Shown: in pieces, positions 21,199 to 56,850 of the stretch | How the letters are laid out: each line of letters opens with the position of its first letter | Numbering within the stretch: the stretch's first letter is position 1 | IMG/VR virus record: IMGVR_UViG_3300027759_000003 | Span: 32,001 to 96,000 of that record | Strand: one strand, 5' to 3' | Length of the DNA: 64,000 bases | Origin: a virus | Position numbers and translations under genes: made by a program | The notes under the pieces: generated by a model | What the model saw: the letters and a program-made list of their open reading frames with translations, nothing else | Told to the model about the DNA's origin: nothing | The model's database searches: none

Positions 21199-21274
21199 TG
21201 GGTTGTAACTCAGTTGGCAGAGTGAGGAACTGTTAATTCCTAAGTCGTAGGTTCGAATCCTACCAACCCAGCCA
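21199..21274 (+). tRNA. tRNA-Asn(GTT)
   Basis: Acceptor TGGGTTG/CAACCCA, anticodon arm AGGAA-ctGTTaa-TTCCT, GTTCGAATC T-loop, encoded CCA. Confidence 0.95.
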
Positions 21275-21275
21275 A

Positions 21276-21346
21276 GCGAATATTGCATAGTGGTAGTGCG
21301 TAACCTTGCCAAGGTTAATGTGCGAGTTCGATTCTCGCTATTCGCT
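21276..21346 (+). tRNA. tRNA-Gly(GCC)
   Basis: Acceptor GCGAATA/TATTCGC, anticodon arm TAACC-ttGCCaa-GGTTA, GTTCGATTC. Confidence 0.93.
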
Positions 21347-21350
21347 CTCT

Positions 21351-21422
21351 GTCCCTATCGTCTAGTGGTTAGGACAACACCCTTTCACGGTGTAAACGAG
21401 AGTTCAATTCTCTCTAGGGATA
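21351..21422 (+). tRNA. tRNA-Glu(TTC)
   Basis: Acceptor GTCCCTA/TAGGGAT, anticodon arm ACACC-ctTTCac-GGTGT, GTTCAATTC. Confidence 0.92.
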
Positions 21423-21423
21423 C

Positions 21424-21495
21424 GCCTCCTTAACTCAGGGGTAGAGTACCCGCCTTGTAAGCGGGTTGTCGTAGGTTCAAATCCTACAGGAGGCT
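21424..21495 (+). tRNA. tRNA-Thr(TGT)
   Basis: Acceptor GCCTCCT/AGGAGGC, anticodon arm CCCGC-ctTGTaa-GCGGG, GTTCAAATC. Confidence 0.93.
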
Positions 21496-21567
21496 CAATA
21501 AATGGTATAATAGGATTGTATCTGCCTACGGGGGATACATAAACTAACTCGCTGAAAAGGAGAAAAA

Positions 21568-22020: not shown

Positions 22021-22057
22021 TTATTTGATATACTTAGATATAACTATAGGAGAATTA

Positions 22058-22231
22058 ATGCCAAGATATGATTACAAATGCTCTGTTTGTTCTTCACAAA
22101 TTGAGTTTGAAAAAAAATTTGATGAAGAAAAATATCCAGTATGCTGTAATCAATCTATGCAAAGACTTTGGAGTGCTCCTACTGCAATTTTTAACGGTAG
22201 TGGATTTTATTCAACAGACAATAGAAAGTAG
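22058..22231 (+). CDS. FmdB-family zinc-ribbon protein
   Basis: MPRYDYKCSVC...FNGSGFYSTD signature. Confidence 0.88.
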   Translation: MPRYDYKCSVCSSQIEFEKKFDEEKYPVCCNQSMQRLWSAPTAIFNGSGFYSTDNRK

Positions 22232-48515: not shown

Positions 48516-48584
48516 TGGGCTTCTTTCTCTAGGGTTCTTAATACAATTTTACTACGAACTGGGAAAAATTACAAGGTATCGTAA

Positions 48585-48600
48585 GGTGATCTACATCACA
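48585..48600. promoter_or_regulatory. CRP/GlxR-type box upstream of a leftward sigma70 promoter (48546-48574)
   Basis: GGTGA-TCTACA-TCACA; promoter TTGTAA-17-TAAAAT on the minus strand. Confidence 0.6.
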
Positions 48601-49316
48601 CTGCTTTGGCTTGCTCCCCAATAGGTTTGAGGGTTCTCTTCAAGAAGTCCCCTAATACTATTAATAACCTCTTCGTCAGACATGATCTCTCCGTCTGTGT
48701 TTATAAGTTCCATAATCTTATCTATGATCTCACCGTGGTCCATTAGTCTTCATCCTCATCTTCATCAATTACATATGCAACATTAGACTGACCCTCGTGA
48801 AATGAAGGTGGGTCTTGCCATATACCCCAAGATAAAGAACTATCAGATAGGCCCTCTGACACTAAGTCTCCACCAAATTGCGATGAATATGTTTTAGTCA
48901 CATTACCCATAGTATGTGTTCTCATCTATGTAACCTTCTGCTAACAAACCTTCAAAGAAGTCCCATATGGTTAATAGGCCTTGCTTTACTTTTGGGTCGG
49001 TAGCGGAATCAATAGCAACAGTTAAACTATTACCAAATTCTTGTATATCCTTGTATGTATAACCTAACATTATCTATCATACTCCTTAATCAAATTCATC
49101 GCAAAGTGAAGACAACAATCGCAGTCTCCATTATTCATGCTATATATAAAGTCAAAATGTTCAGAGTTGTCCTCATATATATTCATTATTAGGCCGTCTA
49201 TGGTTAGTGGTTTGTTAATTGTGGTCATGTTAATATTTTACAGGAAACTGGGGAAAAAGTCAATCTTTCTTAATGAAACAATCATGTGTTATTATTTAAA
49301 GAAAGAAAACCCGGAG

Positions 49317-49390
49317 CGGCTCTGATGGGACTTGAACCCACGATCTCTACCGTGACAGGGTAGCGCATTAACCAACTATGCTACAGAACC
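49317..49390 (-). tRNA. tRNA-Asp(GTC)
   Basis: Minus strand GGTTCTG...CTACC-ctGTCac-GGTAG...GGTTCAAGTCC...CAGAGCC. Confidence 0.93.
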
Positions 49391-49395
49391 AATGG

Positions 49396-49425
49396 TGAGC
49401 AGTTTTAAATCATGCTCAGGATTTT
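49396..49425 (-). ncRNA. Repeated pseudoknot-like RNA motif copy (between DUF932 and tRNA-Asp)
   Basis: AAATC-CTGAGCAT-GATTT-AAAAC-TGCTCA. Confidence 0.55.
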
Positions 49426-49428
49426 TTA

Positions 49429-50445
49429 CTAAACTAGTTGCAAAGTTTTTTGCACAACAGTTAGCAAACGATTTTTTTCTGCATTAGTTGCAGGGTCAAA
49501 TCCAGAAGCAGCAGCAAACATGCTTTCGCCATTTGCACTACGAGATGAACGATACCAGTCTAAACGCTCAGTAAGTGCATTAAATGCGCCCCAAGCATTA
49601 CCAGCAATCATGCCATTAAAATCACCAGTATAAATATCGTTAATCATATTTACCTTGTTTTCCCATTTCTTGATTGCACCCTTAGTATCTAATTCAGGTT
49701 TTGGATAAGCAGCAAGAATAATATCATTGAAATCTTTCGCTGATATTTCTTTTTGTATCATAGCATGAGCCATCTTGTCGAATTCGTCCATGTATGAGTT
49801 AGCCATACCTAGTGCTTGACGAGCAACAGCAACCTTGCCATTGGCAGTTTGTGTATGACGGATTTTGAAAGATTGCTTGACGCCATCTTTTTTCTTAGTA
49901 CGATTGAGTGCAACATTAAGAGTGTTAGCGCACACAACACGAACGGGAGTGATAGAAGCCTGAATTGCAATAGAGCCATCATGGCTAGTGTTAATAAGCA
50001 AATAAGTTTTAACCTTATCCGCAACACCATTTGGGTCTAATACAGTTTCACGCTCTAAAGCAAGAGAGCCAAATACTACACGACCACCCTTAAGAGAGCC
50101 AGCAGTTTCCCAACGACCTCCACCATCAAGAATGTTATCGCCAAATGCAAATAACTCTTCATTTTGTAGTGGTGTGTATCGCTCACCAACAATTCCCAAA
50201 ACATCAGTTTGAGATTTATCAGTTGGGTTTGTACGAACAACATATTGATATTGTTTGTCAGATACTAAACTAGATGGGATTTCTAAATCCTCTAGTCTAA
50301 CATTCCAATTATTTAAGTTAGCAGCAACAAGCATTTCACTTGTATTTTTTTCAGTATCAAATACTGTGCCAAGATTGTGCCATGCAGGCTCTCTAAATGA
50401 AGCAAAACTTGCTACGCCATTTTGAGTTTCTAAATCATGAGCCAT
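49429..50445 (-). CDS. DUF932/DUF945-family phage protein
   Basis: PAWHNLG, YTPLQNEE, WETAGSL.GG, NTSHDGS and TPVRVVCANTL motifs. Confidence 0.88.
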   Translation of the reverse strand: MAHDLETQNGVASFASFREPAWHNLGTVFDTEKNTSEMLVAANLNNWNVRLEDLEIPSSLVSDKQYQYVVRTNPTDKSQTDVLGIVGERYTPLQNEELFAFGDNILDGGGRWETAGSLKGGRVVFGSLALERETVLDPNGVADKVKTYLLINTSHDGSIAIQASITPVRVVCANTLNVALNRTKKKDGVKQSFKIRHTQTANGKVAVARQALGMANSYMDEFDKMAHAMIQKEISAKDFNDIILAAYPKPELDTKGAIKKWENKVNMINDIYTGDFNGMIAGNAWGAFNALTERLDWYRSSRSANGESMFAAASGFDPATNAEKNRLLTVVQKTLQLV

Positions 50446-50471
50446 TTTTATCCTTTCGGTTGTTTTAACTA

Positions 50472-50500
50472 AGTTTAGCAGTCATGACAGCCAATGTCAA
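50472..50500 (-). promoter_or_regulatory. Consensus sigma70/SigA promoter for DUF932
   Basis: TTGACA-17 bp-TAAACT with extended TG. Confidence 0.8.
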
Positions 50501-50576
50501 ATAGGATTGGGGAAAATGGTTTAATCTTCTTAATTGGTATAAATCGGACATTTCGGGCGGGGCCGGGTTTTTGTTA

Positions 50577-50606
50577 GGGCCAGTTTTACGTCTTGGCCCA
50601 CGACGT
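50577..50606 (-). ncRNA. Repeated pseudoknot-like RNA motif copy (covariant variant)
   Basis: ACGTC-GTGGGCCAA-GACGT-AAAAC-TGGCCC. Confidence 0.5.
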
Positions 50607-50662
50607 TGATAGCCCCCTATCAAATTTAAGCGGTCCCTGCAGCGGATGCTACAGATCTCTTA

Positions 50663-51127
50663 TTAGTTCTCCTCAAGTGACACATCGTCTACAGTTAAGT
50701 CAGCGTCATAGTCATATGAACTTAATTCTGCATCAATGGTTACACTGCTTAGATCAAAGTCTTCAATCTCATCCAATGGGATGTTAATAGTTCCACTGAA
50801 TGTAACGGTGCCGTATACACTCATTTGCTTTACAGGATTAAGATTAAAGTGTTGTGTTAGCGCTTTTAAAACTTCTTCTTTAGAATAGTTTGGGTCATAC
50901 CATTCAGGAATTTGATCTTCAAGCCATGAGATGTCTAAACGACGCTCTGCTGCTAGATTGGCATTAGTTCTGCCTTGATGTAGTTCCCATTCAAGATCAG
51001 TAACTTTATCAGTCATGAATGTAGGGCTTTCAGGTGCTGCATAGGTGTCAGGTATAGCCTTGTAGGTTACAAGTAGGTTAGGATTGTATGGAACAGATAA
51101 CTGCTCCTGTGTCATTACTTCGCTCAT
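50663..51127 (-). CDS. Acidic hypothetical early protein
   Basis: ATG at 51127 after AAGGA; promoter TTGCAT-17-TATTAT at 51153-51181. Confidence 0.65.
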   Translation of the reverse strand: MSEVMTQEQLSVPYNPNLLVTYKAIPDTYAAPESPTFMTDKVTDLEWELHQGRTNANLAAERRLDISWLEDQIPEWYDPNYSKEEVLKALTQHFNLNPVKQMSVYGTVTFSGTINIPLDEIEDFDLSSVTIDAELSSYDYDADLTVDDVSLEEN

Positions 51128-51262
51128 TAGGGGTTCCTTTTCTGTTAATACAATAATATCATCAAGATTGTGGGAATGCAAGTTCAGTTCTTAATTAGTC
51201 TCACATAATGAGATGTGATTTAGATCACGCTGCCCCGGATTTTTGCGGGGGGCAATTAAAGA

Positions 51263-51292
51263 TGAGCAGTTTAGAACTCATGCTCAGGAGTC
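51263..51292 (-). ncRNA. Repeated pseudoknot-like RNA motif copy
   Basis: GACTC-CTGAGCAT-GAGTT-CTAAAC-TGCTCA. Confidence 0.55.
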
Positions 51293-51342
51293 TTATCTCA
51301 GGAATAACTTAGCAATTAAGCCAAGTGCTTATCAGAGATAAA

Positions 51343-51513
51343 TTATTTAGTTGTGCTTACCATAGCAAGGCGTCTTGCGCCATTTGCTAATTGTAAGGAT
51401 ACTCTAGTGGTCTTAGAGTTGATAGGTGAGAACTTTACAATTCTACCTGTGATACCTGTTTTGCTTGTGGTGAATAAATCACCTAGTTGGTATGTGTATC
51501 CGCCTAGTGTCAT
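51343..51513 (-). CDS. Small SH3/KOW-like beta protein (paralog of 52112-52282)
   Basis: Read by eye: MTLGGYTYQLGDLFTTSKTGITGRIVKFSPINSKTTRVSLQL; promoter TTGACT-17-TATACT at 51550-51578. Confidence 0.65.
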   Translation of the reverse strand: MTLGGYTYQLGDLFTTSKTGITGRIVKFSPINSKTTRVSLQLANGARRLAMVSTTK

Positions 51514-51595
51514 GATTTTCCTTTTCTGTTGTGGTGGTTTGTTATATTAAGTATAACATTTTTGGGGGGGCAAGTCAAGAACCCCCCCAATACTA

Positions 51596-52018
51596 TTAGA
51601 GATAACGAGCAATAGCGTTATATGTGCTAGTGCTAACTGTTTCCTCGTCCGTCATTTTAAGGATACGGATAGCGTTCTCAAGTTCCTCTTTCATTTCACG
51701 ATAAGTATGAGCATGGATTTGCTCAAAATTACGCTCAGGCTCTTTGGGAAAGTCTGCCTCATCTGTGATTAAATCAAAATCAACATTAAGGGTTTTGTTC
51801 CAAGAACGATAGTTAGTGCGTAGGTTTTCAGCCTTTGAGATGTTAGCAGTAGCAAACTTAGCAACTTCTTTGCGCCATTTATCTACTTGCTTTTGGAACT
51901 TTGCTTCCAGTTCATCTTGATTTGTGTAGTCAGCATTTACTTGTGCTAACTTTGTTTCTAAGGCTTTGATAACCTTAGCAGTAGCGATTTTTACGCTGAT
52001 GGGTTTGCTTCTTGCCAT
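51596..52018 (-). CDS. Hypothetical early protein
   Basis: 140-aa ORF ending NAIRILKMTDEETVSTSTYNAIARYL. Confidence 0.7.
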   Translation of the reverse strand: MARSKPISVKIATAKVIKALETKLAQVNADYTNQDELEAKFQKQVDKWRKEVAKFATANISKAENLRTNYRSWNKTLNVDFDLITDEADFPKEPERNFEQIHAHTYREMKEELENAIRILKMTDEETVSTSTYNAIARYL

Positions 52019-52065
52019 TTGGTTTGTTTCCGTTTCTGTTGGTGAGTTTGATGGGGGTATTAAGT

Positions 52066-52092
52066 TGAGCAGTTTCTCGTCATGCTCAGGAC
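52066..52092 (-). ncRNA. Repeated pseudoknot-like RNA motif copy
   Basis: GTC-CTGAGCAT-GAC-GAGAAAC-TGCTCA preceded by hairpin TTAGCC-tagt-GGCTAA. Confidence 0.55.
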
Positions 52093-52111
52093 TTTAGCCA
52101 CTAGGCTAAGA

Positions 52112-52282
52112 TTAAGCGTTCTTTGCTGTCCAAGTTGTCCAGCGAGTTGAGCCATTAACATCTAACTTAACTCTAACTGTGTTCTTGTTAGTTGGCACAA
52201 TTTCGGTAATAGTTCCTACTACCTTTGATTTTTGTGATGTGTAGGTGTCGCCTACCTTGTATGTTGCGTTTGCTACGGACAT
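52112..52282 (-). CDS. Small SH3/KOW-like beta protein
   Basis: AGGAG RBS; YKVGDTYTSQKSKVVGTITEI...VRVKLDV. Confidence 0.65.
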   Translation of the reverse strand: MSVANATYKVGDTYTSQKSKVVGTITEIVPTNKNTVRVKLDVNGSTRWTTWTAKNA

Positions 52283-52377
52283 GGTTCTCCTTCTTGTTGG
52301 TTTTTGCTTACTGTATAAGTCTAACATTTTTTGGTCAAAAATACAAATTATCTCATGGATAATCTCATATATTGAGA

Positions 52378-52393
52378 TGTGAGATATATCACA
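52378..52393. promoter_or_regulatory. CRP/GlxR-type box (perfect)
   Basis: TGTGA-GATATA-TCACA. Confidence 0.7.
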
Positions 52394-52467
52394 CTTAATG
52401 CCCCATGCCTGAGAATAGGATATATAAGAATATAAGTGATAATACTATTAGTATCTCCATATGCCCC

Positions 52468-53196
52468 TTATTTCTTAGATGATGAAAAGACTATGTCGCT
52501 CTTAGAGTATACACACAAACCGCAAGATACGCAAGCCGAGCCAGCGCTTGAGATAAGTGGAATGGCTTTTAGGTTTTCAGGGCACTTAGCACCAGGTCGA
52601 TTAAATAACTCCTTCATATCTGCCTGACCTATTGCAAAATTCTGTGCAAGGTATGCAAGGCGTATCCCATGATCTTTCTTTAAATTAACGCCTATCTGCT
52701 TATTCTCGCTGTCTGTTGAATAGTATAAGGATAGATTAGGAATATCCTTTAGCATTACCGCTGCAGGCTGTACCCTTGTATATACCCAGAATTTTATATC
52801 TGTATTGTTAAGGATGATTTGTTTCCATGCTTTGGTGTACGTGTCATTAAAGAAATCACCGTCCCAATGAATACGAAATAACAATGACGCATTTTTCTTT
52901 TCACAATCTTTTTTAAAATCATTAATCATATTCTGCAATAGATCAATCATAGTCGATTCGTCAGCGTCTTTTAATAATTCCCAATTATGTATTAGGTTTG
53001 CCTTTACGGCTTTGTAAAGTTTTTCAAGTTTTCCTGCGTAGCAAACACTTTCACAAACACTAGTGGCACCAGGGCATGAATAATTCTTTCCAGCGGGAAG
53101 ACCGAACGTGTTTGCAATTGCGGCTTGCTTTCCATTTTTTGTAACAAGATTAGCAACCTTTCTGTCAAATGATCTTTTTAATTGTGGTGTTGTCAT
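52468..53196 (-). CDS. Gp88-family phage protein
   Basis: FGLPAGKNYSCPGATSVCESVCYA, FRIHWDGDF, WVYTR and C-terminal CVSCGLC. Confidence 0.8.
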   Translation of the reverse strand: MTTPQLKRSFDRKVANLVTKNGKQAAIANTFGLPAGKNYSCPGATSVCESVCYAGKLEKLYKAVKANLIHNWELLKDADESTMIDLLQNMINDFKKDCEKKNASLLFRIHWDGDFFNDTYTKAWKQIILNNTDIKFWVYTRVQPAAVMLKDIPNLSLYYSTDSENKQIGVNLKKDHGIRLAYLAQNFAIGQADMKELFNRPGAKCPENLKAIPLISSAGSACVSCGLCVYSKSDIVFSSSKK

Positions 53197-53299
53197 ATAA
53201 ATATTTTAGCAGAATGTGGAGAAAATATCAAGTGTACGTAAGGTACAAAACGGACAAATCGGGCAGGGCCGGGTTTTTCTGCGGGGAAGTGCAGAAAAA

Positions 53300-53533
53300 T
53301 TATTCTAAGTGAACATACCAATCATAGTATTCATTATCAACTAACTGAGCGGTATCTTTTTCACCAAACTCATTTTGATACTCTGCATACCAAAAGTATT
53401 GGTCAGGATCAGATTCAATAGAAAGTATTTCAACTACCTCATCATTGTATCCAATAAAATCTCCAACCATCATCATAGAAGGTTTGAGAATATCTATTTT
53501 CTTTAATTCCATGTTCATCATTGTAGCAGCCAT
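53300..53533 (-). CDS. Hypothetical early protein
   Basis: GAGG RBS; 77 aa. Confidence 0.55.
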   Translation of the reverse strand: MAATMMNMELKKIDILKPSMMMVGDFIGYNDEVVEILSIESDPDQYFWYAEYQNEFGEKDTAQLVDNEYYDWYVHLE

Positions 53534-53618
53534 TTATTCAGCCTCAATTTCTGCTAGGGTTTCCCATAGAATAGGTTCTAGAATTTTTGCAACCTGATCT
53601 AATTTATCTTGCAAGTCT

Positions 53619-53915
53619 TTACTCATATAAGTCCTCATCTGCTGGCTCAATGAACCACTCTAGGTGTGCGTGTGATACCAATGCGCTGGCGGTAGTCCAA
53701 GTGTTGCCCTTCCAACTAATTTGAAAGCCATCAACAACTGGTAATTCTATTCTACGAGAATAATCCTCCTCATAGTATGCGTCAATAGCCTCAATACATG
53801 GCTGAACCATTACTGTTGGTATTGGTGGATAATGATTACCTTGTAAGTGATACTTTAATTGTGTTTCTAGGTCTAGCGTTGTATCTGCTAAACCTATTGC
53901 TGTTATGCTTCCCAT
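53619..53915 (-). CDS. Hypothetical early protein
   Basis: HLQGNHYPP...PCIEAI...HAHLEWF motif family. Confidence 0.7.
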   Translation of the reverse strand: MGSITAIGLADTTLDLETQLKYHLQGNHYPPIPTVMVQPCIEAIDAYYEEDYSRRIELPVVDGFQISWKGNTWTTASALVSHAHLEWFIEPADEDLYE

Positions 53916-54139
53916 TATTTAATTACGACCTCTCCGTTAGTGTAGAAGGTTTTAGTATACATCTTACCTGTTGGGTCAGACAAATTATAGGTTGCGTATT
54001 CTTTAGCAAAGCCATAGTCCACGCATTTATCCCAAGCCCTAACTGCTTCTAGCATATCGCTAACTCGCAGGGTATGAATTAACTCTCCATCATATGAAGT
54101 AGTAAGTGAATAAGTATATTCCATTAGTTTAGTTTCCAA
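53915..54139 (-). CDS. Hypothetical early protein
   Basis: AWDKCVDYG.AKEYATYNL motif; coupled to the downstream gene. Confidence 0.6.
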   Translation of the reverse strand: METKLMEYTYSLTTSYDGELIHTLRVSDMLEAVRAWDKCVDYGFAKEYATYNLSDPTGKMYTKTFYTNGEVVIK

Positions 54140-54313
54140 TCCATTAGTTCGTCAGCAGATATAGCGTAAGGATTACACTCGCAAGGCTCACTATCAAAGT
54201 CTACATTATTTCCTTGATATATCCAACCATAGCCGTAGCAGTATTCGTGCTCTAGTATATCCATTAGTGCTTCTTTTACTTTACCCATTTGTTCCTTCTT
54301 TCTTTATATCTTT

Positions 54314-54335
54314 ATCCTATCAGATACAACTGACA
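54314..54335 (-). promoter_or_regulatory. PafBC-type (RecA-NDp) promoter
   Basis: TGTCAG-N10-TAGGAT. Confidence 0.6.
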
Positions 54336-54435
54336 AAATCCAATTAGACGCCTTAATCTGGGGAATTTAGGGTGTGATCTTAACCACACGTAAAGGTCAT
54401 GTATAGATTGCGACACGCCGCCTGCGCCGGGTTTT

Positions 54436-54451
54436 TCGAACAAATGTTTGA
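54436..54451. promoter_or_regulatory. Actinobacterial LexA (SOS) box-like site
   Basis: TCGAAC-AAAT-GTTTGA, one mismatch to TCGAAC-N4-GTTCGA. Confidence 0.45.
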
Positions 54452-54476
54452 GCAGTTTTTATTCTTGCTCAGGAAT
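54449..54476 (-). ncRNA. Repeated pseudoknot-like RNA motif copy
   Basis: ATTC-CTGAGCAA-GAAT-AAAAAC-TGCTCA. Confidence 0.55.
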
Positions 54477-54482
54477 TTTTAT

Positions 54483-54629
54483 TTATACTTTAAATGCTTT
54501 ACGCAATTCATTTCGCAATCTGCGAATTTCTTTTTGTTGTGCAATATTTTGTTTCCAAAATAAACCCATAACAGTTAAGCAACCAAGTAGCGCAATTATT
54601 ATTGCAATCACATCTAAATTAGTTATCAT
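54483..54629 (-). CDS. Small single-TM protein
   Basis: Read by eye: MITNLDVIAIIIALLGCLTVMGLFWKQN... Confidence 0.55.
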   Translation of the reverse strand: MITNLDVIAIIIALLGCLTVMGLFWKQNIAQQKEIRRLRNELRKAFKV

Positions 54630-54634
54630 TTGTT

Positions 54635-54844
54635 TTACCCCTTCCACATTTCAGAGCCAACAGGAATTAAACCAATTTCATCAATTCCGCAAGCCTTTTC
54701 AAATCTTGCAAAATCAAAGTTTTCATTATCTGATTGAAACCAATCCGCAAATTCTTGAATTAAATCTTCATAAGTATTTTGTGGAATTTCATCTACAAAA
54801 CTTTTTAGAATGTTTGCGGTTTTGATGTAGTCTTTTCTAGTCAT
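54635..54844 (-). CDS. Hypothetical early protein (MTRKDY...NFD..RF..AC family)
   Basis: Recognisable small phage protein motif. Confidence 0.7.
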   Translation of the reverse strand: MTRKDYIKTANILKSFVDEIPQNTYEDLIQEFADWFQSDNENFDFARFEKACGIDEIGLIPVGSEMWKG

Positions 54845-54992
54845 TAGTCAGCCTCTTTCGTAGTAAATAAAGTGCCTAGTGCAAAGTTTTTACATTCGCA
54901 CTTTTCTACATCATAGGCAAGATTATCTCCCCAAAAAATATAACCTGCGCCATTACATTCATCACACTTAAAAGTCATTACGCTACTAATCA

Positions 54993-55178
54993 TTATGCTA
55001 ACGCCTTTCCTCTAAGTGTGCCACGAACACCCAACACATCACAAGCAATTTTTACAGATACGCCAACAGGTAATTGGTTTGGGTAAGTGTTTATGAATTG
55101 AGCAACCGCACCCTGAGAAGGTAGGTTGATATTTTTTACAGCACCATTAAAGGTTTCTAGTTTTACAGTATAAGTCAT
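54993..55178 (-). CDS. Small early protein (paralog of 57173-57367)
   Basis: VKLETFNG...FINTYPNQLPVGVSV. Confidence 0.65.
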   Translation of the reverse strand: MTYTVKLETFNGAVKNINLPSQGAVAQFINTYPNQLPVGVSVKIACDVLGVRGTLRGKALA

Positions 55179-55211
55179 TTCTGACCACCTTTCGTTTTTG
55201 TTTGAGTTATT

Positions 55212-55233
55212 ATTCTATCAATTATCGCTGACA
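55212..55233 (-). promoter_or_regulatory. PafBC-type (RecA-NDp) promoter
   Basis: TGTCAG-N10-TAGAAT; perfect CRP box at 55262-55277. Confidence 0.62.
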
Positions 55234-55382
55234 TTTTCCAATTATAGGGGGTGTGTTGGAGTGTGAGTTGCCTCACATCTCCTTTATATTAGCCTGATGA
55301 TAAGCAAGGGTTATCTCCTCGCCATACTCGGCTACTAGGTCGGCATAGACCTCATCTAGATAGTTAAGGTAATCAGACATTA

Positions 55383-55583
55383 TTAACCTACCTGAACCGC
55401 TACGGTGCGGAAAGTATTGTTAATGCGACCTTCATCTATTTCTACAAAATAGGCTTCAGTATTATCACCATACCAAAGAGCACCCTTAGATTTTTCTGCG
55501 GAAATAATTGTTCCGTCAGTTAAGGATTTAGATGAATAAGATTTACCAATTAGCAAATCTTCTATTGTGTATAAGTTAGCCAT
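55383..55583 (-). CDS. Small early protein
   Basis: MANLYTIEDLLIGKSY...; RBS and promoter upstream. Confidence 0.65.
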   Translation of the reverse strand: MANLYTIEDLLIGKSYSSKSLTDGTIISAEKSKGALWYGDNTEAYFVEIDEGRINNTFRTVAVQVG

Positions 55584-55620
55584 TGTTAGCCACTTCCTTT
55601 CGTTATTTTCTTACTCCGTA

Positions 55621-55642
55621 AGTCTATCAGAATTAACAGACA
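55621..55642 (-). promoter_or_regulatory. PafBC-type promoter (variant TGTCTG)
   Basis: TGTCTG-N10-TAGACT; perfect CRP box 55691-55706; DnaA box 55718-55726. Confidence 0.55.
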
Positions 55643-56229
55643 TTTACAACCTACTAGCCAGTAATCTCAAATAATAAGACGCTCAAACTGTGTGAGAAAA
55701 ATCACATCGTACGTAAGTTATCCACAGGCTGTGGACGACACGCCATGCGTGCCGGGTTTTTTGCAGAGTTTTTATTTCTGCAAAAATTTTTTATTAGTTA
55801 AATTTATCTAATAAAATTTGTTTAACAATTTCTAATTGCGCTTCGGTTAAATTAGTTAATTCAACTGCGTTTTCAAATTGCTTAGTTATGCTTTCTGTAT
55901 TATTTTGCATTTTTATGTTTTACCTTTCTACTATATTTTTTTTTATTTGGAATTGGTGTTGCCGCATTACTACGGCGCAATTCTTGAATACGAATAATTT
56001 TGTTTTTTATTTCTTTTAACATTTTATTATTCCCAACAATTAGAGCAAGTAATTATATCTTGCTCATCAAAAAATTCGCTAGAAACTTTTTCATTACATA
56101 GACGACAATTAAGAGTTATCATTTATATTCTCCTTTTAAGATAAGTTCATCTAGCATTTTTGCTAGAGGGTCTATCTGCTCGTCAGCAAGATAGTTAGTT
56201 AATTCTAAATCTTTTACAAAGTTTATCAT

Positions 56230-56403
56230 TTACTTACCTACCTTCCATGAAGACCAATAAGATAGCAATTCGCTATCCTCAATATAGTGAGAATAAATAT
56301 TCTGCTCACAATTTTCGCAGAAACTATATTTCATATCATTTACGATAGATGTCGCTAATAGATTAGCGGTGTGCTTACACACTTTGTTTAGTAGTGAATT
56401 CAT
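56230..56403 (-). CDS. First leftward early gene, small Cys-containing protein
   Basis: Read by eye: MNSLLNKVCKH...SFCENCEQNI...WSSWKVGK; AAGGA RBS. Confidence 0.55.
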   Translation of the reverse strand: MNSLLNKVCKHTANLLATSIVNDMKYSFCENCEQNIYSHYIEDSELLSYWSSWKVGK

Positions 56404-56455
56404 TTTGAATTCCTTTCTTTAAGAGATTTACTTATTGTTCAATCTTTATACTAGA

Positions 56456-56477
56456 AGTATAACAGCGACCACTGACA
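56456..56477 (-). promoter_or_regulatory. PafBC-type (RecA-NDp) promoter
   Basis: aTGTCAGTGgtcgctgtTATACT matches tTGTCRgtg-N8-TAnnnT / TGTCRG-N10-TAnnnT. Confidence 0.65.
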
Positions 56478-56489
56478 TTTACTGACCAG

Positions 56490-56850
56490 TAGGTAGGACA
56501 AAACGGACATTGTGTCTTGTGATGTAGGTCATGTGGATAACTTGAGCGTGAAATGGGTATGTGATCTACGTCATGTGGATAACCCTCTCAGACACACCCG
56601 ACCGAGCCGGGTTGCATGTCCGATATGTCCGATATGTCGTGTGGTATATATCACTAATTACATGCGTGTTATTTACGGCGTGTCGTGTTGACTTTTGGGG
56701 TTATCCCTGCTATAATTCCATTATAGAAAATTAAATATAGAATTATTTAGGGGCGTGAGCCTAGCAAGTAAATGTGAGACAAATCACAGTGAGCCTAGCA
56801 AATAACCCCCCCTAAATTGTCAGCCCCCCCTGCTAGAATTGCAGGTATAG
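56490..56850. promoter_or_regulatory. Divergent regulatory hub (CRP boxes, DnaA boxes, sigma70 and PafBC promoters)
   Basis: CRP-like boxes 56518, 56560, 56640, 56773; TGTGGATAA 56532 and 56574; TTGACT-17-TATAAT 56688-56716; TGTCAG-N10-TAGAAT 56818-56839. Confidence 0.7.

What the first reader, a model, noticed from the sequence alone, without database searches (positions are those of the whole stretch)
48585..56788. Ten CRP/GlxR boxes, nine helically phased relative to their promoters
Seen: TGTGA-N6-TCACA is perfect at 52378, 55262, 55691 and 56773, and has 1-2 mismatches at 48585, 51214, 54373, 56518, 56560 and 56640. Distances from box centre to the 3' end of the cognate -10 hexamer, counted by hand, are 46.5, 57.5, 58.5, 66.5, 67.5, 68.5, 68.5, 69.5 and 77.5 bp, i.e. 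steps of about one helical turn. The tenth box (56560) is a second, more distal site. Known: class I CRP activation needs same-face phasing, and actinobacterial Crp/GlxR uses this consensus. Inference: these are functional cAMP-dependent activator sites linking the start of infection to host carbon/energy status.
Basis: partly seen in the sequence, partly recalled or inferred. Interest (0 to 1): 0.8.

Follow-up and report, generated by a model that had tools for sequence, protein, structure and literature searches.

The report
Phased CRP-type boxes at phage promoters
An uncultured 110-kb lake phage of actinobacteria places a 16-base palindrome of the CRP/GlxR type whole DNA turns upstream of its early promoters; the likely host group (acI) keeps a matching Crp protein but no recognisable cAMP-making enzyme, so a host regulator probably tunes early infection, though not necessarily through cAMP.

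Summary
Observation confirmed. The four perfect TGTGA-N6-TCACA boxes are the only ones in the 109,757-bp phage genome. Seven of its nine sites with at most one mismatch lie in 8.2 kb. The three two-mismatch boxes are not significant on their own. In 80 related IMG/VR loci the box is about 100-fold enriched, mostly non-coding, as conserved as the -35/-10 bases, and laddered at 47.5/57.5/67.5/77.5/88/99 bp (p about 3e-6).

The phage has no Crp-like or HTH regulator. Unrelated WhiB phages carry the same clustered boxes, including the cultured Planktophila phages E7 and F5. All 30 small rhodopsin-bearing genomes searched, some carrying Crp sequences named 'Ca. Planktophila', hold one Crp whose recognition helix equals M. 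tuberculosis CRP.

Caveats:
- None of these genomes shows a class III cyclase, and none of 26 shows a class IV cyclase.
- Near-consensus boxes are not enriched in them.
- The register is about 3 bp off E. coli class I.
- Binding and activation are untested.

Host Crp is the best candidate reader; 'cAMP-dependent carbon sensing' is unsupported. This scan reported the same element earlier on related phages.

The parts
48585..48600 (.). CRP-type box, 1 mismatch (GGTGATCTACATCACA). Centre is 46.5 bp from the 3' end of the -10.
48546..48574 (-). Promoter TTGTAA-17-TAAAAT served by box 48585
51214..51229 (.). CRP-type box, 1 mismatch; 68.5 bp from the -10
51153..51181 (-). Promoter TTGCAT-17-TATTAT
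52378..52393 (.). Perfect CRP-type box; 67.5 bp from the -10. The orthologous site is conserved downstream of the GP88 gene in relatives.
52318..52346 (-). Promoter TTGTAT-17-TAGACT
54373..54388 (.). CRP-type box, 1 mismatch; 66.5 bp from the -10
54314..54342 (-). Promoter of the TGTCAG-N10-TAGGAT (PafBC/RecA-NDp-like) type
55262..55277 (.). Perfect CRP-type box; 57.5 bp from the -10
55212..55240 (-). Promoter of the TGTCAG-N10-TAGAAT type
55691..55706 (.). Perfect CRP-type box; 77.5 bp from the -10
55621..55649 (-). Promoter TTGTAA-17-TAGACT (contains TGTCTG-N10-TAGACT)
56518..56533 (.). Weak box, 2 mismatches; 69.5 bp from the -10. Lies inside the 24-bp direct repeat 56518-56541, which carries a DnaA-box-like TGTGGATAA.
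56560..56575 (.). Weak box, 2 mismatches; distal at 111.5 bp. Second copy of the 24-bp direct repeat (56560-56583).
56456..56484 (-). Promoter of the TGTCAGTG-N8-TATACT type for the innermost leftward gene (56230-56403)
56640..56655 (.). Weak box, 2 mismatches; 68.5 bp upstream of the strongest rightward promoter. A comparably weak site sits at the same distance in relatives.
56688..56716 (+). Near-consensus promoter TTGACT-17-TATAAT
56773..56788 (.). Perfect CRP-type box; 58.5 bp from the -10. Flanked by 17-bp direct repeats at 56755-56771 and 56789-56805.
56811..56839 (+). Rightward promoter of the TGTCAG-N10-TAGAAT type

Best explanation
The boxes are operator sites for a dimeric CRP-family regulator. 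The most likely reader is the single Crp orthologue of the host, probably a freshwater acI actinobacterium (Nanopelagicales). Each box sits upstream of the -35 region of a host-RNA-polymerase promoter in the small-gene, presumably early, block. The boxes keep to one face of the helix at steps of one turn. Bound Crp would therefore contact or bend DNA toward RNA polymerase and modulate, most likely boost, transcription at the onset of infection. Shown: the sites, their enrichment, conservation, non-coding placement and phasing; a matching Crp in the candidate host group; the same boxes in unrelated phages of that group. Inferred: that Crp binds them, that the effect is activation, and the host assignment. 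A link to cAMP is doubtful.
For: The boxes are confined to one region and enriched in this genome. Related loci hold 309 perfect boxes in 1.30 Mb, against roughly 3 expected when the shuffle rate is scaled up. The logo of 448 unique sites shows symmetric T6, T8-A9 and A11 preferences that the search did not impose; this is the GlxR/CRP extended consensus. About 80-86% of sites with 0 or 1 mismatch fall in the roughly 37% of sequence that is non-coding. In an alignment of the GP88-downstream spacer that was not selected for the box, the half-sites are at least 90% conserved, like the key -35/-10 bases, while the spacer and flanks vary. Phasing holds in the window (p = 0.0016) and in 25 de-replicated promoter contexts (R = 0.715 at 10.25-10.5 bp, p about 3e-6). 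There is no excess of compensatory arm changes, so the element is DNA-read and not an RNA stem. The phage has no Crp or cNMP-binding domain and no HTH regulator among 103 small ORFs. The unrelated 39-kb WhiB phage G404 has 4 clustered boxes, three of them 10-11 bp upstream of a perfect TTGACA. The cultured Planktophila phages E7 and F5 have 2 perfect boxes each against 0.04 expected. This phage shares a 66%-identical CHAP endolysin with G404, and several proteins at 36-65% identity (26-79% over all segments) with E7/F5. All 30 acI-type genomes searched have one Crp. Three of the eight looked up carry sequences named 'Ca. Planktophila' lacus, vernalis or sp.. It aligns end to end with M. tuberculosis CRP (E = 6e-77) and GlxR (E = 7e-73), with an identical SRETVNKALADF helix. 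CRP of M. tuberculosis recognises an E. coli-like palindrome and can activate from upstream sites (PMC4117774).
Against: No binding or expression data exist. The host is inferred, not shown. In 26 acI-type genomes perfect boxes are nearly absent: 1, against 7 for the reversed control. Sites with at most one mismatch are not enriched: 66 against 83 in 5 genomes. No box lies near crp. A host Crp regulon using this motif is therefore not visible. The ladder translates to centres near -53.5, -64.5, -74.5 and -84.5 if the -10 spans -12 to -7. That is about 3 bp off the E. coli class I register, and it includes a position where E. coli CRP is not known to activate (my recollection). All box-bearing phages examined also share WhiB and a small FmdB-type zinc-ribbon protein, so a shared phage factor is not excluded. 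Streptomyces relatives with the same cassette layout have no such boxes, although Streptomyces has Crp.
Confidence: 0.6

Rival explanations
1. The boxes are read by a phage-encoded or virion-delivered dimeric protein of unrecognised fold, which merely shares the TGTGA/TCACA half-site with CRP. This protein would act as a phage-specific early/middle switch.
For: Most small early ORFs have no detectable family. Every box-bearing phage examined shares WhiB and an FmdB-type zinc-ribbon protein (window 22025-22231). Host genomes show no enrichment of the motif. A Streptomyces relative lacks the boxes despite a Crp-bearing host.
Against: The site matches the CRP/GlxR consensus down to internal positions. 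No HTH or CRP-like protein was found in the phage. WhiB-type and zinc-ribbon proteins are not known to read 16-bp palindromes (established knowledge). Two phage lineages with different genome types use the identical box. Early promoters must fire before any phage protein is made.
Confidence: 0.2
2. The boxes act mainly as a Crp sink. Near-consensus sites on replicating phage DNA would titrate the host's only Crp away from its weaker chromosomal sites and so reprogramme host transcription. Promoter effects would be secondary.
For: The 8.2-kb stretch holds 4 perfect and 3 one-mismatch sites. Whole acI-type genomes hold about 0.04 perfect sites each and roughly 13 one-mismatch sites per 1.4 Mb, no more than the control.
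Against: A decoy needs no fixed helical register with promoters, yet the register is strict. Sites are nearly one per promoter rather than arrayed.
Confidence: 0.08
3. The boxes are chiefly recombination or cassette-boundary marks that promote shuffling of early gene cassettes, like PeSL elements of T4-type phages.
For: The boxes sit at gene ends between small autonomous cassettes. Box 56773 is flanked by 17-bp direct repeats.
Against: This does not explain the CRP-consensus sequence, the dyad symmetry or the promoter phasing. Cassette exchange was not tested here.
Confidence: 0.05

Closest known systems
Actinobacterial Crp/GlxR operators (M. tuberculosis CRP Rv3676, C. glutamicum GlxR)
   Same: The same 16-bp dyad TGTGA-N6-TCACA with a central TA preference. 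The candidate host's Crp has the identical recognition helix. Upstream sites are associated with activation in M. tuberculosis (PMC4117774).
   Different: These sites lie on a lytic phage, are far closer to consensus than anything in the candidate host genomes, and are arrayed one per early promoter in strict helical phase. Binding is untested.
Class I CRP-dependent promoters of E. coli (lac type)
   Same: A site upstream of the -35, with permitted positions stepping by one helical turn.
   Different: The register is offset by about 3 bp, assuming the -10 spans -12 to -7. A class at about -53.5, abutting the -35, is common. Many target promoters are of the TGTCRG-N10-TAnnnT (PafBC-like) type rather than -35/-10 promoters. 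cAMP dependence is doubtful.
Host global-regulator sites in phage genomes: CtrA boxes in alphaproteobacterial phages (PMC9437464), Spo0A boxes in phi29/Nf (PMC2731898), LexA boxes in GIL01 (PMC4551915)
   Same: The phage carries conserved binding sites for a host master regulator in its control regions, coupling its programme to host state.
   Different: A different regulator family and host phylum. Here there are many sites, one per early promoter and helically phased, which suggests co-activation rather than deferral or repression of the lytic cycle.
Host-takeover early cassettes of SPO1/T5-type phages and of Streptomyces Stanwilliamsviridae (e.g. NootNoot left end)
   Same: A block of many small genes, each with its own strong promoter and terminator. 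DnaE (53-55% identical) and DUF932 (about 53% identical) show kinship with Streptomyces phages; NootNoot itself was hit by the DUF932 search.
   Different: The Streptomyces relative has no CRP-type boxes in these cassettes.

Membership tests
CRP/GlxR-type operator | 16-bp dyad TGTGA-N6-TCACA | tested here: met
   4 perfect and 3 one-mismatch sites; 309 perfect sites in relatives.
CRP/GlxR-type operator | Extended symmetric preferences inside the spacer (T6/A11, central TA) | tested here: met
   Logo of 448 unique sites: T6 62%, T8 59%, A9 69%, A11 65%. The GlxR consensus TGTGANNTANNTCACA is quoted from my own knowledge.
CRP/GlxR-type operator | A cognate CRP protein with the conserved recognition helix is available in the infected cell | tested here: inconclusive
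   Met for the candidate host group: 30 of 30 acI-type genomes have one Crp with the SRETVNKALADF helix. The host of this phage is only inferred.
CRP/GlxR-type operator | The same motif marks the host's own regulon | tested here: not met
   Perfect sites 1 against 7 for the control in 26 genomes. Sites with at most one mismatch 66 against 83. None near crp. This is a crude count; weak sites were not modelled.
CRP/GlxR-type operator | Physical binding by Crp | not testable with these tools
   Needs EMSA, footprinting or ChIP.
Class I CRP-dependent promoter | Site upstream of the -35, on one helix face, with steps of about 10.5 bp | tested here: met
   Window p = 0.0016; family ladder p about 3e-6.
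Class I CRP-dependent promoter | Centres at -61.5, -71.5, -82.5, -92.5 | tested here: inconclusive
   Distances of 46.5-47.5, 57.5, 67.5 and 77.5 to the -10 3' end imply about -53.5, -64.5, -74.5 and -84.5. That is about 3 bp off, but start sites are not mapped.
Class I CRP-dependent promoter | cAMP-dependent activation | tested here: inconclusive
   No PF00211 in 30 acI-type genomes and no PF01928 in 26. No PF00211 in the phage. The Crp keeps the FGELS...PRTS pocket motif. Other cyclase classes were not searched.
Phage use of host global-regulator sites (CtrA/Spo0A/LexA precedents) | Sites conserved across relatives and shared by unrelated phages of the same host group | tested here: met
   80 related loci; G404, G408, E7 and F5.

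The most novel reading that the evidence does not exclude
At least two unrelated phage lineages of the very abundant acI lake actinobacteria carry the best Crp sites in the infected cell. Their hosts keep Crp but have no recognisable adenylate cyclase and no near-consensus chromosomal sites. On this reading the phages use an effectively ligand-independent, always-available Crp as a generic upstream co-activator of early promoters, including PafBC-type ones, and may titrate it from the host at the same time. This would be host-regulator capture rather than nutrient sensing.
Probability: 0.25. Interest if true: 0.75.

Novelty: new variant of a known kind. Interest (0 to 1): 0.6.

Why it matters
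acI actinobacteria are among the most abundant freshwater bacteria, and almost nothing is known about how their phages start infection. A conserved, phased array of CRP-type sites on early promoters is a concrete and testable regulatory link between a lytic phage and a host global regulator. I found no paper describing this. The same boxes occur in the two cultured Planktophila phages, so a laboratory system (strain LanE-43 with E7/F5) exists for a direct test. The lack of a recognisable cyclase in genomes that all keep Crp also raises the question of what this Crp senses in streamlined actinobacteria.

Tried and rejected
**Host identification**
- A WhiB scan of genome contigs returned only low-GC phage-like contigs binned into unrelated MAGs.
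- A phylum-wide sample showed no taxonomy.
- Its small genomes turned out, by names on the nearest proteins, to be kin of Humimicrobiia, Aquicultor and Thermoleophilia, not acI.
- The phage's exported 532-aa protein hit none of 71 small genomes.
'Relatives' cannot be drawn for a virus record.
- A literature look-up for an acI 16S probe sequence gave no sequence.

**Rejected readings**
- Chance: rejected.
- RNA hairpin: no excess of compensatory changes, 4 of 177 against about 3.7% expected.
- Phage-borne Crp: none found.
- Conservation of the boxes in Streptomyces relatives: absent in NootNoot.

**Other dead ends**
- PHROGs and Pfam gave no function for the early ORFs.
- My first k-mer clustering for de-replication over-merged promoters. 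I replaced it with stricter clustering.

**Unpublished genomes**
- The tally of 63 against 27 boxes in 71 small genomes includes G327.
- The tally includes 15 unpublished genomes.
- The rhodopsin tally includes G432.
- No conclusion rests on them.
Full report
**What the window is.** The window is bases 32001-96000 of a 109,757-bp IMG/VR virus record with 36.7% G+C and a 72-bp terminal repeat. It encodes WhiB, a DnaE-type polymerase 53-55% identical to those of Streptomyces phages, DnaB, a DUF932 protein and a GP88-family protein. It is therefore an actinophage-like virus with unusually low G+C. Coordinates 44-56.4 kb hold a run of small leftward genes. These are separated by short spacers that contain sigma-70-like promoters and hairpins. 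A 460-bp divergent control region follows at 56.4-56.86 kb. The left end of Streptomyces phage NootNoot has the same layout: about 21 small leftward genes, each behind a terminator and a TTG...TAGACT promoter. This resembles the host-takeover early modules of large virulent phages. That these genes are 'early' is inferred, not shown.

**The observation.**
- The four perfect boxes are the only ones in the window (expected 0.14) and in the whole genome.
- With the three one-mismatch sites, 7 of the 9 genome-wide sites with at most one mismatch fall in 7.5% of the genome.
- The two-mismatch class is at background (28 found, 37 expected), so 56518, 56560 and 56640 are weak calls.
- 56518 and 56560 belong to two copies of a 24-bp direct repeat that also contains TGTGGATAA, a DnaA-box-like word.
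- 56640 lies 68.5 bp from the -10 of the best promoter in the region (TTGACT-17-TATAAT). Relatives keep a similarly weak site at 67.5/68.5 bp upstream of such promoters (13 of 61).
- A Rayleigh test gives R = 0.86 at 10.5 bp. A permutation test that allows for scanning periods from 9.5 to 11.5 bp gives p = 0.0016.

**Family-wide evidence.** The GP88 protein retrieved 80 related loci, out of 378 stretches that encode a relative.
- The loci hold 309 perfect boxes in 1.30 Mb, against about 3 expected by chance when the shuffle rate is scaled up.
- A logo of 448 unique sites shows preferences the search did not impose: A just upstream, T at position 6, T-A at 8-9 and A at 11. This gives TGTGAT-n-TA-n-ATCACA, the extended CRP/GlxR consensus.
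- Sites with 0 or 1 mismatch are 78-86% non-coding, although only about 37% of the sequence is non-coding by a crude ORF mask. Two-mismatch sites are near background.
- I aligned the spacer downstream of GP88 without selecting for the box (46 unique sequences). TGTG and CACA are at least 90% conserved, like the TTG of the -35 and the T, A and final T of the -10. The six spacer bases and the flanks vary.
- Double changes at mirrored positions are no more often complementary than chance (4 of 177). The element is therefore read as DNA by a symmetric protein, not as an RNA stem.

**Phasing.** Across all unique sites, the distance from box centre to the 3' end of the best downstream -10 peaks at 46.5/47.5, 56.5/57.5, 67.5/68.5 and 77.5 bp. 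I then restricted the test to promoters with the long, unambiguous TGTC[AGT]G-N10-TAnnnT signature and de-replicated them into 25 distinct contexts. The ladder is 47.5, 57.5, 66.5-68.5, 76.5-78.5, about 88 and about 99 bp. The Rayleigh maximum lies at 10.25-10.5 bp (R = 0.715, p about 3e-6). Helical phasing is therefore a property of the phage family, not a hand-counting artefact. If the -10 spans -12 to -7, the centres lie near -53.5, -64.5, -74.5 and -84.5. That is about 3 bp from the E. coli class I series (positions from my own knowledge), and the commonest class abuts the -35. Without mapped start sites I leave the register open.

**Who reads the box? The phage.** The phage has no HTH_Crp_2 or cNMP-binding domain. 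Among 103 ORFs of at most 260 aa, Pfam finds only WhiB, a weak Sleeping-Beauty-type HTH hit (E = 0.003) and a zinc ribbon. PHROGs gives no function for the early ORFs.

**Who reads the box? Unrelated phages.**
- Besides relatives, this returned G404, a complete 39.3-kb WhiB phage with 46% G+C. It has four boxes within 1.2 kb of its divergent control region. Three of them lie 10-11 bp upstream of a perfect TTGACA, the 46.5/47.5 class.
- It also returned G408, a WhiB-bearing fragment with three perfect boxes.
- G404's terminase is 84% identical to those of OX376640.1 and OX376641.1. Their record titles read LanE43-AprE7 and LanE43-AprF5. These are the two cultured phages of 'Ca. Planktophila' strain LanE-43 (PMC10202952).
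- E7 and F5 each contain two perfect boxes, against 0.04 expected (p at most 0.002). F5 has a further one-mismatch box 11 bp upstream of TTTACA.
- The present phage shares a CHAP endolysin (66% identical), a methyltransferase and several probable tail or receptor proteins with G404. It shares several proteins, mostly 36-65% identical, with E7/F5.
- I take this as moderate evidence that its host is also a member of the Nanopelagicales.

**The candidate host's Crp.** I took a class-level sample of 400 genomes centred on a large actinomycete. About 30 of them are 1.3-1.7 Mb genomes with a rhodopsin gene, mostly single contigs.
- All 30 have exactly one Crp orthologue (E 1e-35 to 1e-41).
- Exact look-ups of eight of these proteins show that three lie in clusters carrying 'Ca. 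Planktophila' names: G515 (P. lacus), G735 (P. vernalis) and G622 (Planktophila sp.).
- The protein aligns over its full length with M. tuberculosis CRP (PDB 3D0S, 3MZH; E = 6e-77) and C. glutamicum GlxR (4CYD; E = 7e-73).
- The helix-turn-helix is the same except for one conservative change, and the recognition helix SRETVNKALADF is identical.
- CRP of M. tuberculosis binds an E. coli-like palindrome, and upstream sites are associated with activation (PMC4117774).
- A matching reader is thus present in the probable host from the first minute of infection.

- None of the 30 genomes has a class III nucleotide cyclase domain, and none of 26 has a CYTH (class IV) domain. Both searches hit the C. 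glutamicum control. The phage has no class III cyclase either. Cyclase classes other than III and IV were not searched in the hosts.
- cAMP has little effect on DNA binding by the M. tuberculosis protein (PMC4117774). 'cAMP-dependent' and 'carbon/energy status' are therefore unsupported.
- The 26 acI-type genomes together contain one perfect box, against seven for the reversed control pattern. Sites with at most one mismatch are not enriched (66 against 83 in five genomes). None lies near crp. The host regulon, if it uses this motif, uses much weaker sites. The phage sites would be by far the best in the cell. This fits assured occupancy, or titration, as well as sensing.
- All box-bearing phages examined share WhiB and a 68-aa FmdB-type zinc-ribbon protein (window 22025-22231). 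A phage-encoded reader therefore cannot be excluded.
- NootNoot, whose host has Crp, lacks the boxes.

**Promoter strength in the window (suggestive only).** The three box-less promoters of the block have near-consensus -35 hexamers: TTGACT, TTGACA and TTGATA. Promoters behind good boxes have poorer ones: TTGTAA, TTGCAT, TTGTAT, TGGATT, TGGAAA and CCTAAA. This is what an activator-dependent design predicts. The sample is small, however, and G404 pairs its boxes with perfect -35 hexamers.

**Verdict.** The finding is real and biologically meaningful. It is a conserved, non-coding, helically phased array of CRP/GlxR-type operators on the early promoters of a lake actinophage family, and unrelated phages of 'Ca. 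Planktophila' share it. The host's single Crp is the best-supported reader (about 0.6), and activation is the most likely effect. I found no paper describing this. The nearest precedents are CtrA, Spo0A and LexA sites in other phages. This scan has reported the same element on related phages before.

Noticed in passing
window 54314-54335, 55212-55233, 55621-55642, 56456-56477 (-) and 56818-56839 (+): Five promoters have the form TGTC[AT]G-N10-TAnnnT with invariant spacing (PafBC/RecA-NDp-like). All lie within 2.5 kb of the divergence point, and each has a CRP-type box upstream. A sixth regex match at 53961-53982 lies inside a gene. Only two other matches exist in the genome.
   Followed up: partly
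window 55718-55726 (+), 56532-56540 and 56574-56582 (-); also G404 20.50-20.56 kb: DnaA-box words TTATCCACA/TGTGGATAA cluster in the early control region (3 of 4 in the genome). They recur twice in the control region of the unrelated Planktophila-type phage G404. This may be a replication origin or a DnaA-sensing element.
   Followed up: partly
window 50562-50569, 53268-53275, 54426-54433, 55751-55758, 56606-56613 (+): GCCGGGTT occurs five times in the whole genome, all on the + strand of this block, about 45-90 bp distal to the boxes or promoters. Four copies are followed by a T-run. Function unknown (antisense terminator?).
   Followed up: no
window 56617-56639 (+); 50545-50550, 53251-53256, 56504-56509 (-): TGTCCG words, tandem at 9-bp spacing at 56617, recur between boxes and promoters here and in relatives. 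NootNoot cassettes carry the complementary CGGACA/GGACA repeats in the same place. This may be a second, older shared operator.
   Followed up: partly
window 49396-49420, 51263-51288, 52066-52090, 54449-54473 (+): A conserved hairpin TGAGCAGTTT-N6-7-TGCTCAGG sits just past gene ends. Earlier follow-ups of this scan on other genomes call it a coremin-like RNA pseudoknot.
   Followed up: no
window 56755-56771 and 56789-56805: 17-bp direct repeats GTGAGCCTAGCAA(G/A)TAA flank the perfect box 56773 on both sides.
   Followed up: no
acI-type genomes G436-G762: All 30 small rhodopsin-bearing freshwater actinomycete genomes keep one Crp with an intact FGELS...PRTS pocket motif. None shows a class III cyclase domain, and none of 26 shows a class IV cyclase domain. 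This Crp appears to be an orphan with no obvious cAMP source.
   Followed up: partly
window 49316-49390 (-): A lone tRNA-Asp gene sits inside the small-gene block, apart from the four-tRNA cluster at 21199-21496.
   Followed up: no
window 22025-22231 (+): A 68-aa FmdB-type zinc-ribbon protein is shared at 37-49% identity with G404, G408, E7 and F5, that is with all box-bearing phages examined.
   Followed up: partly
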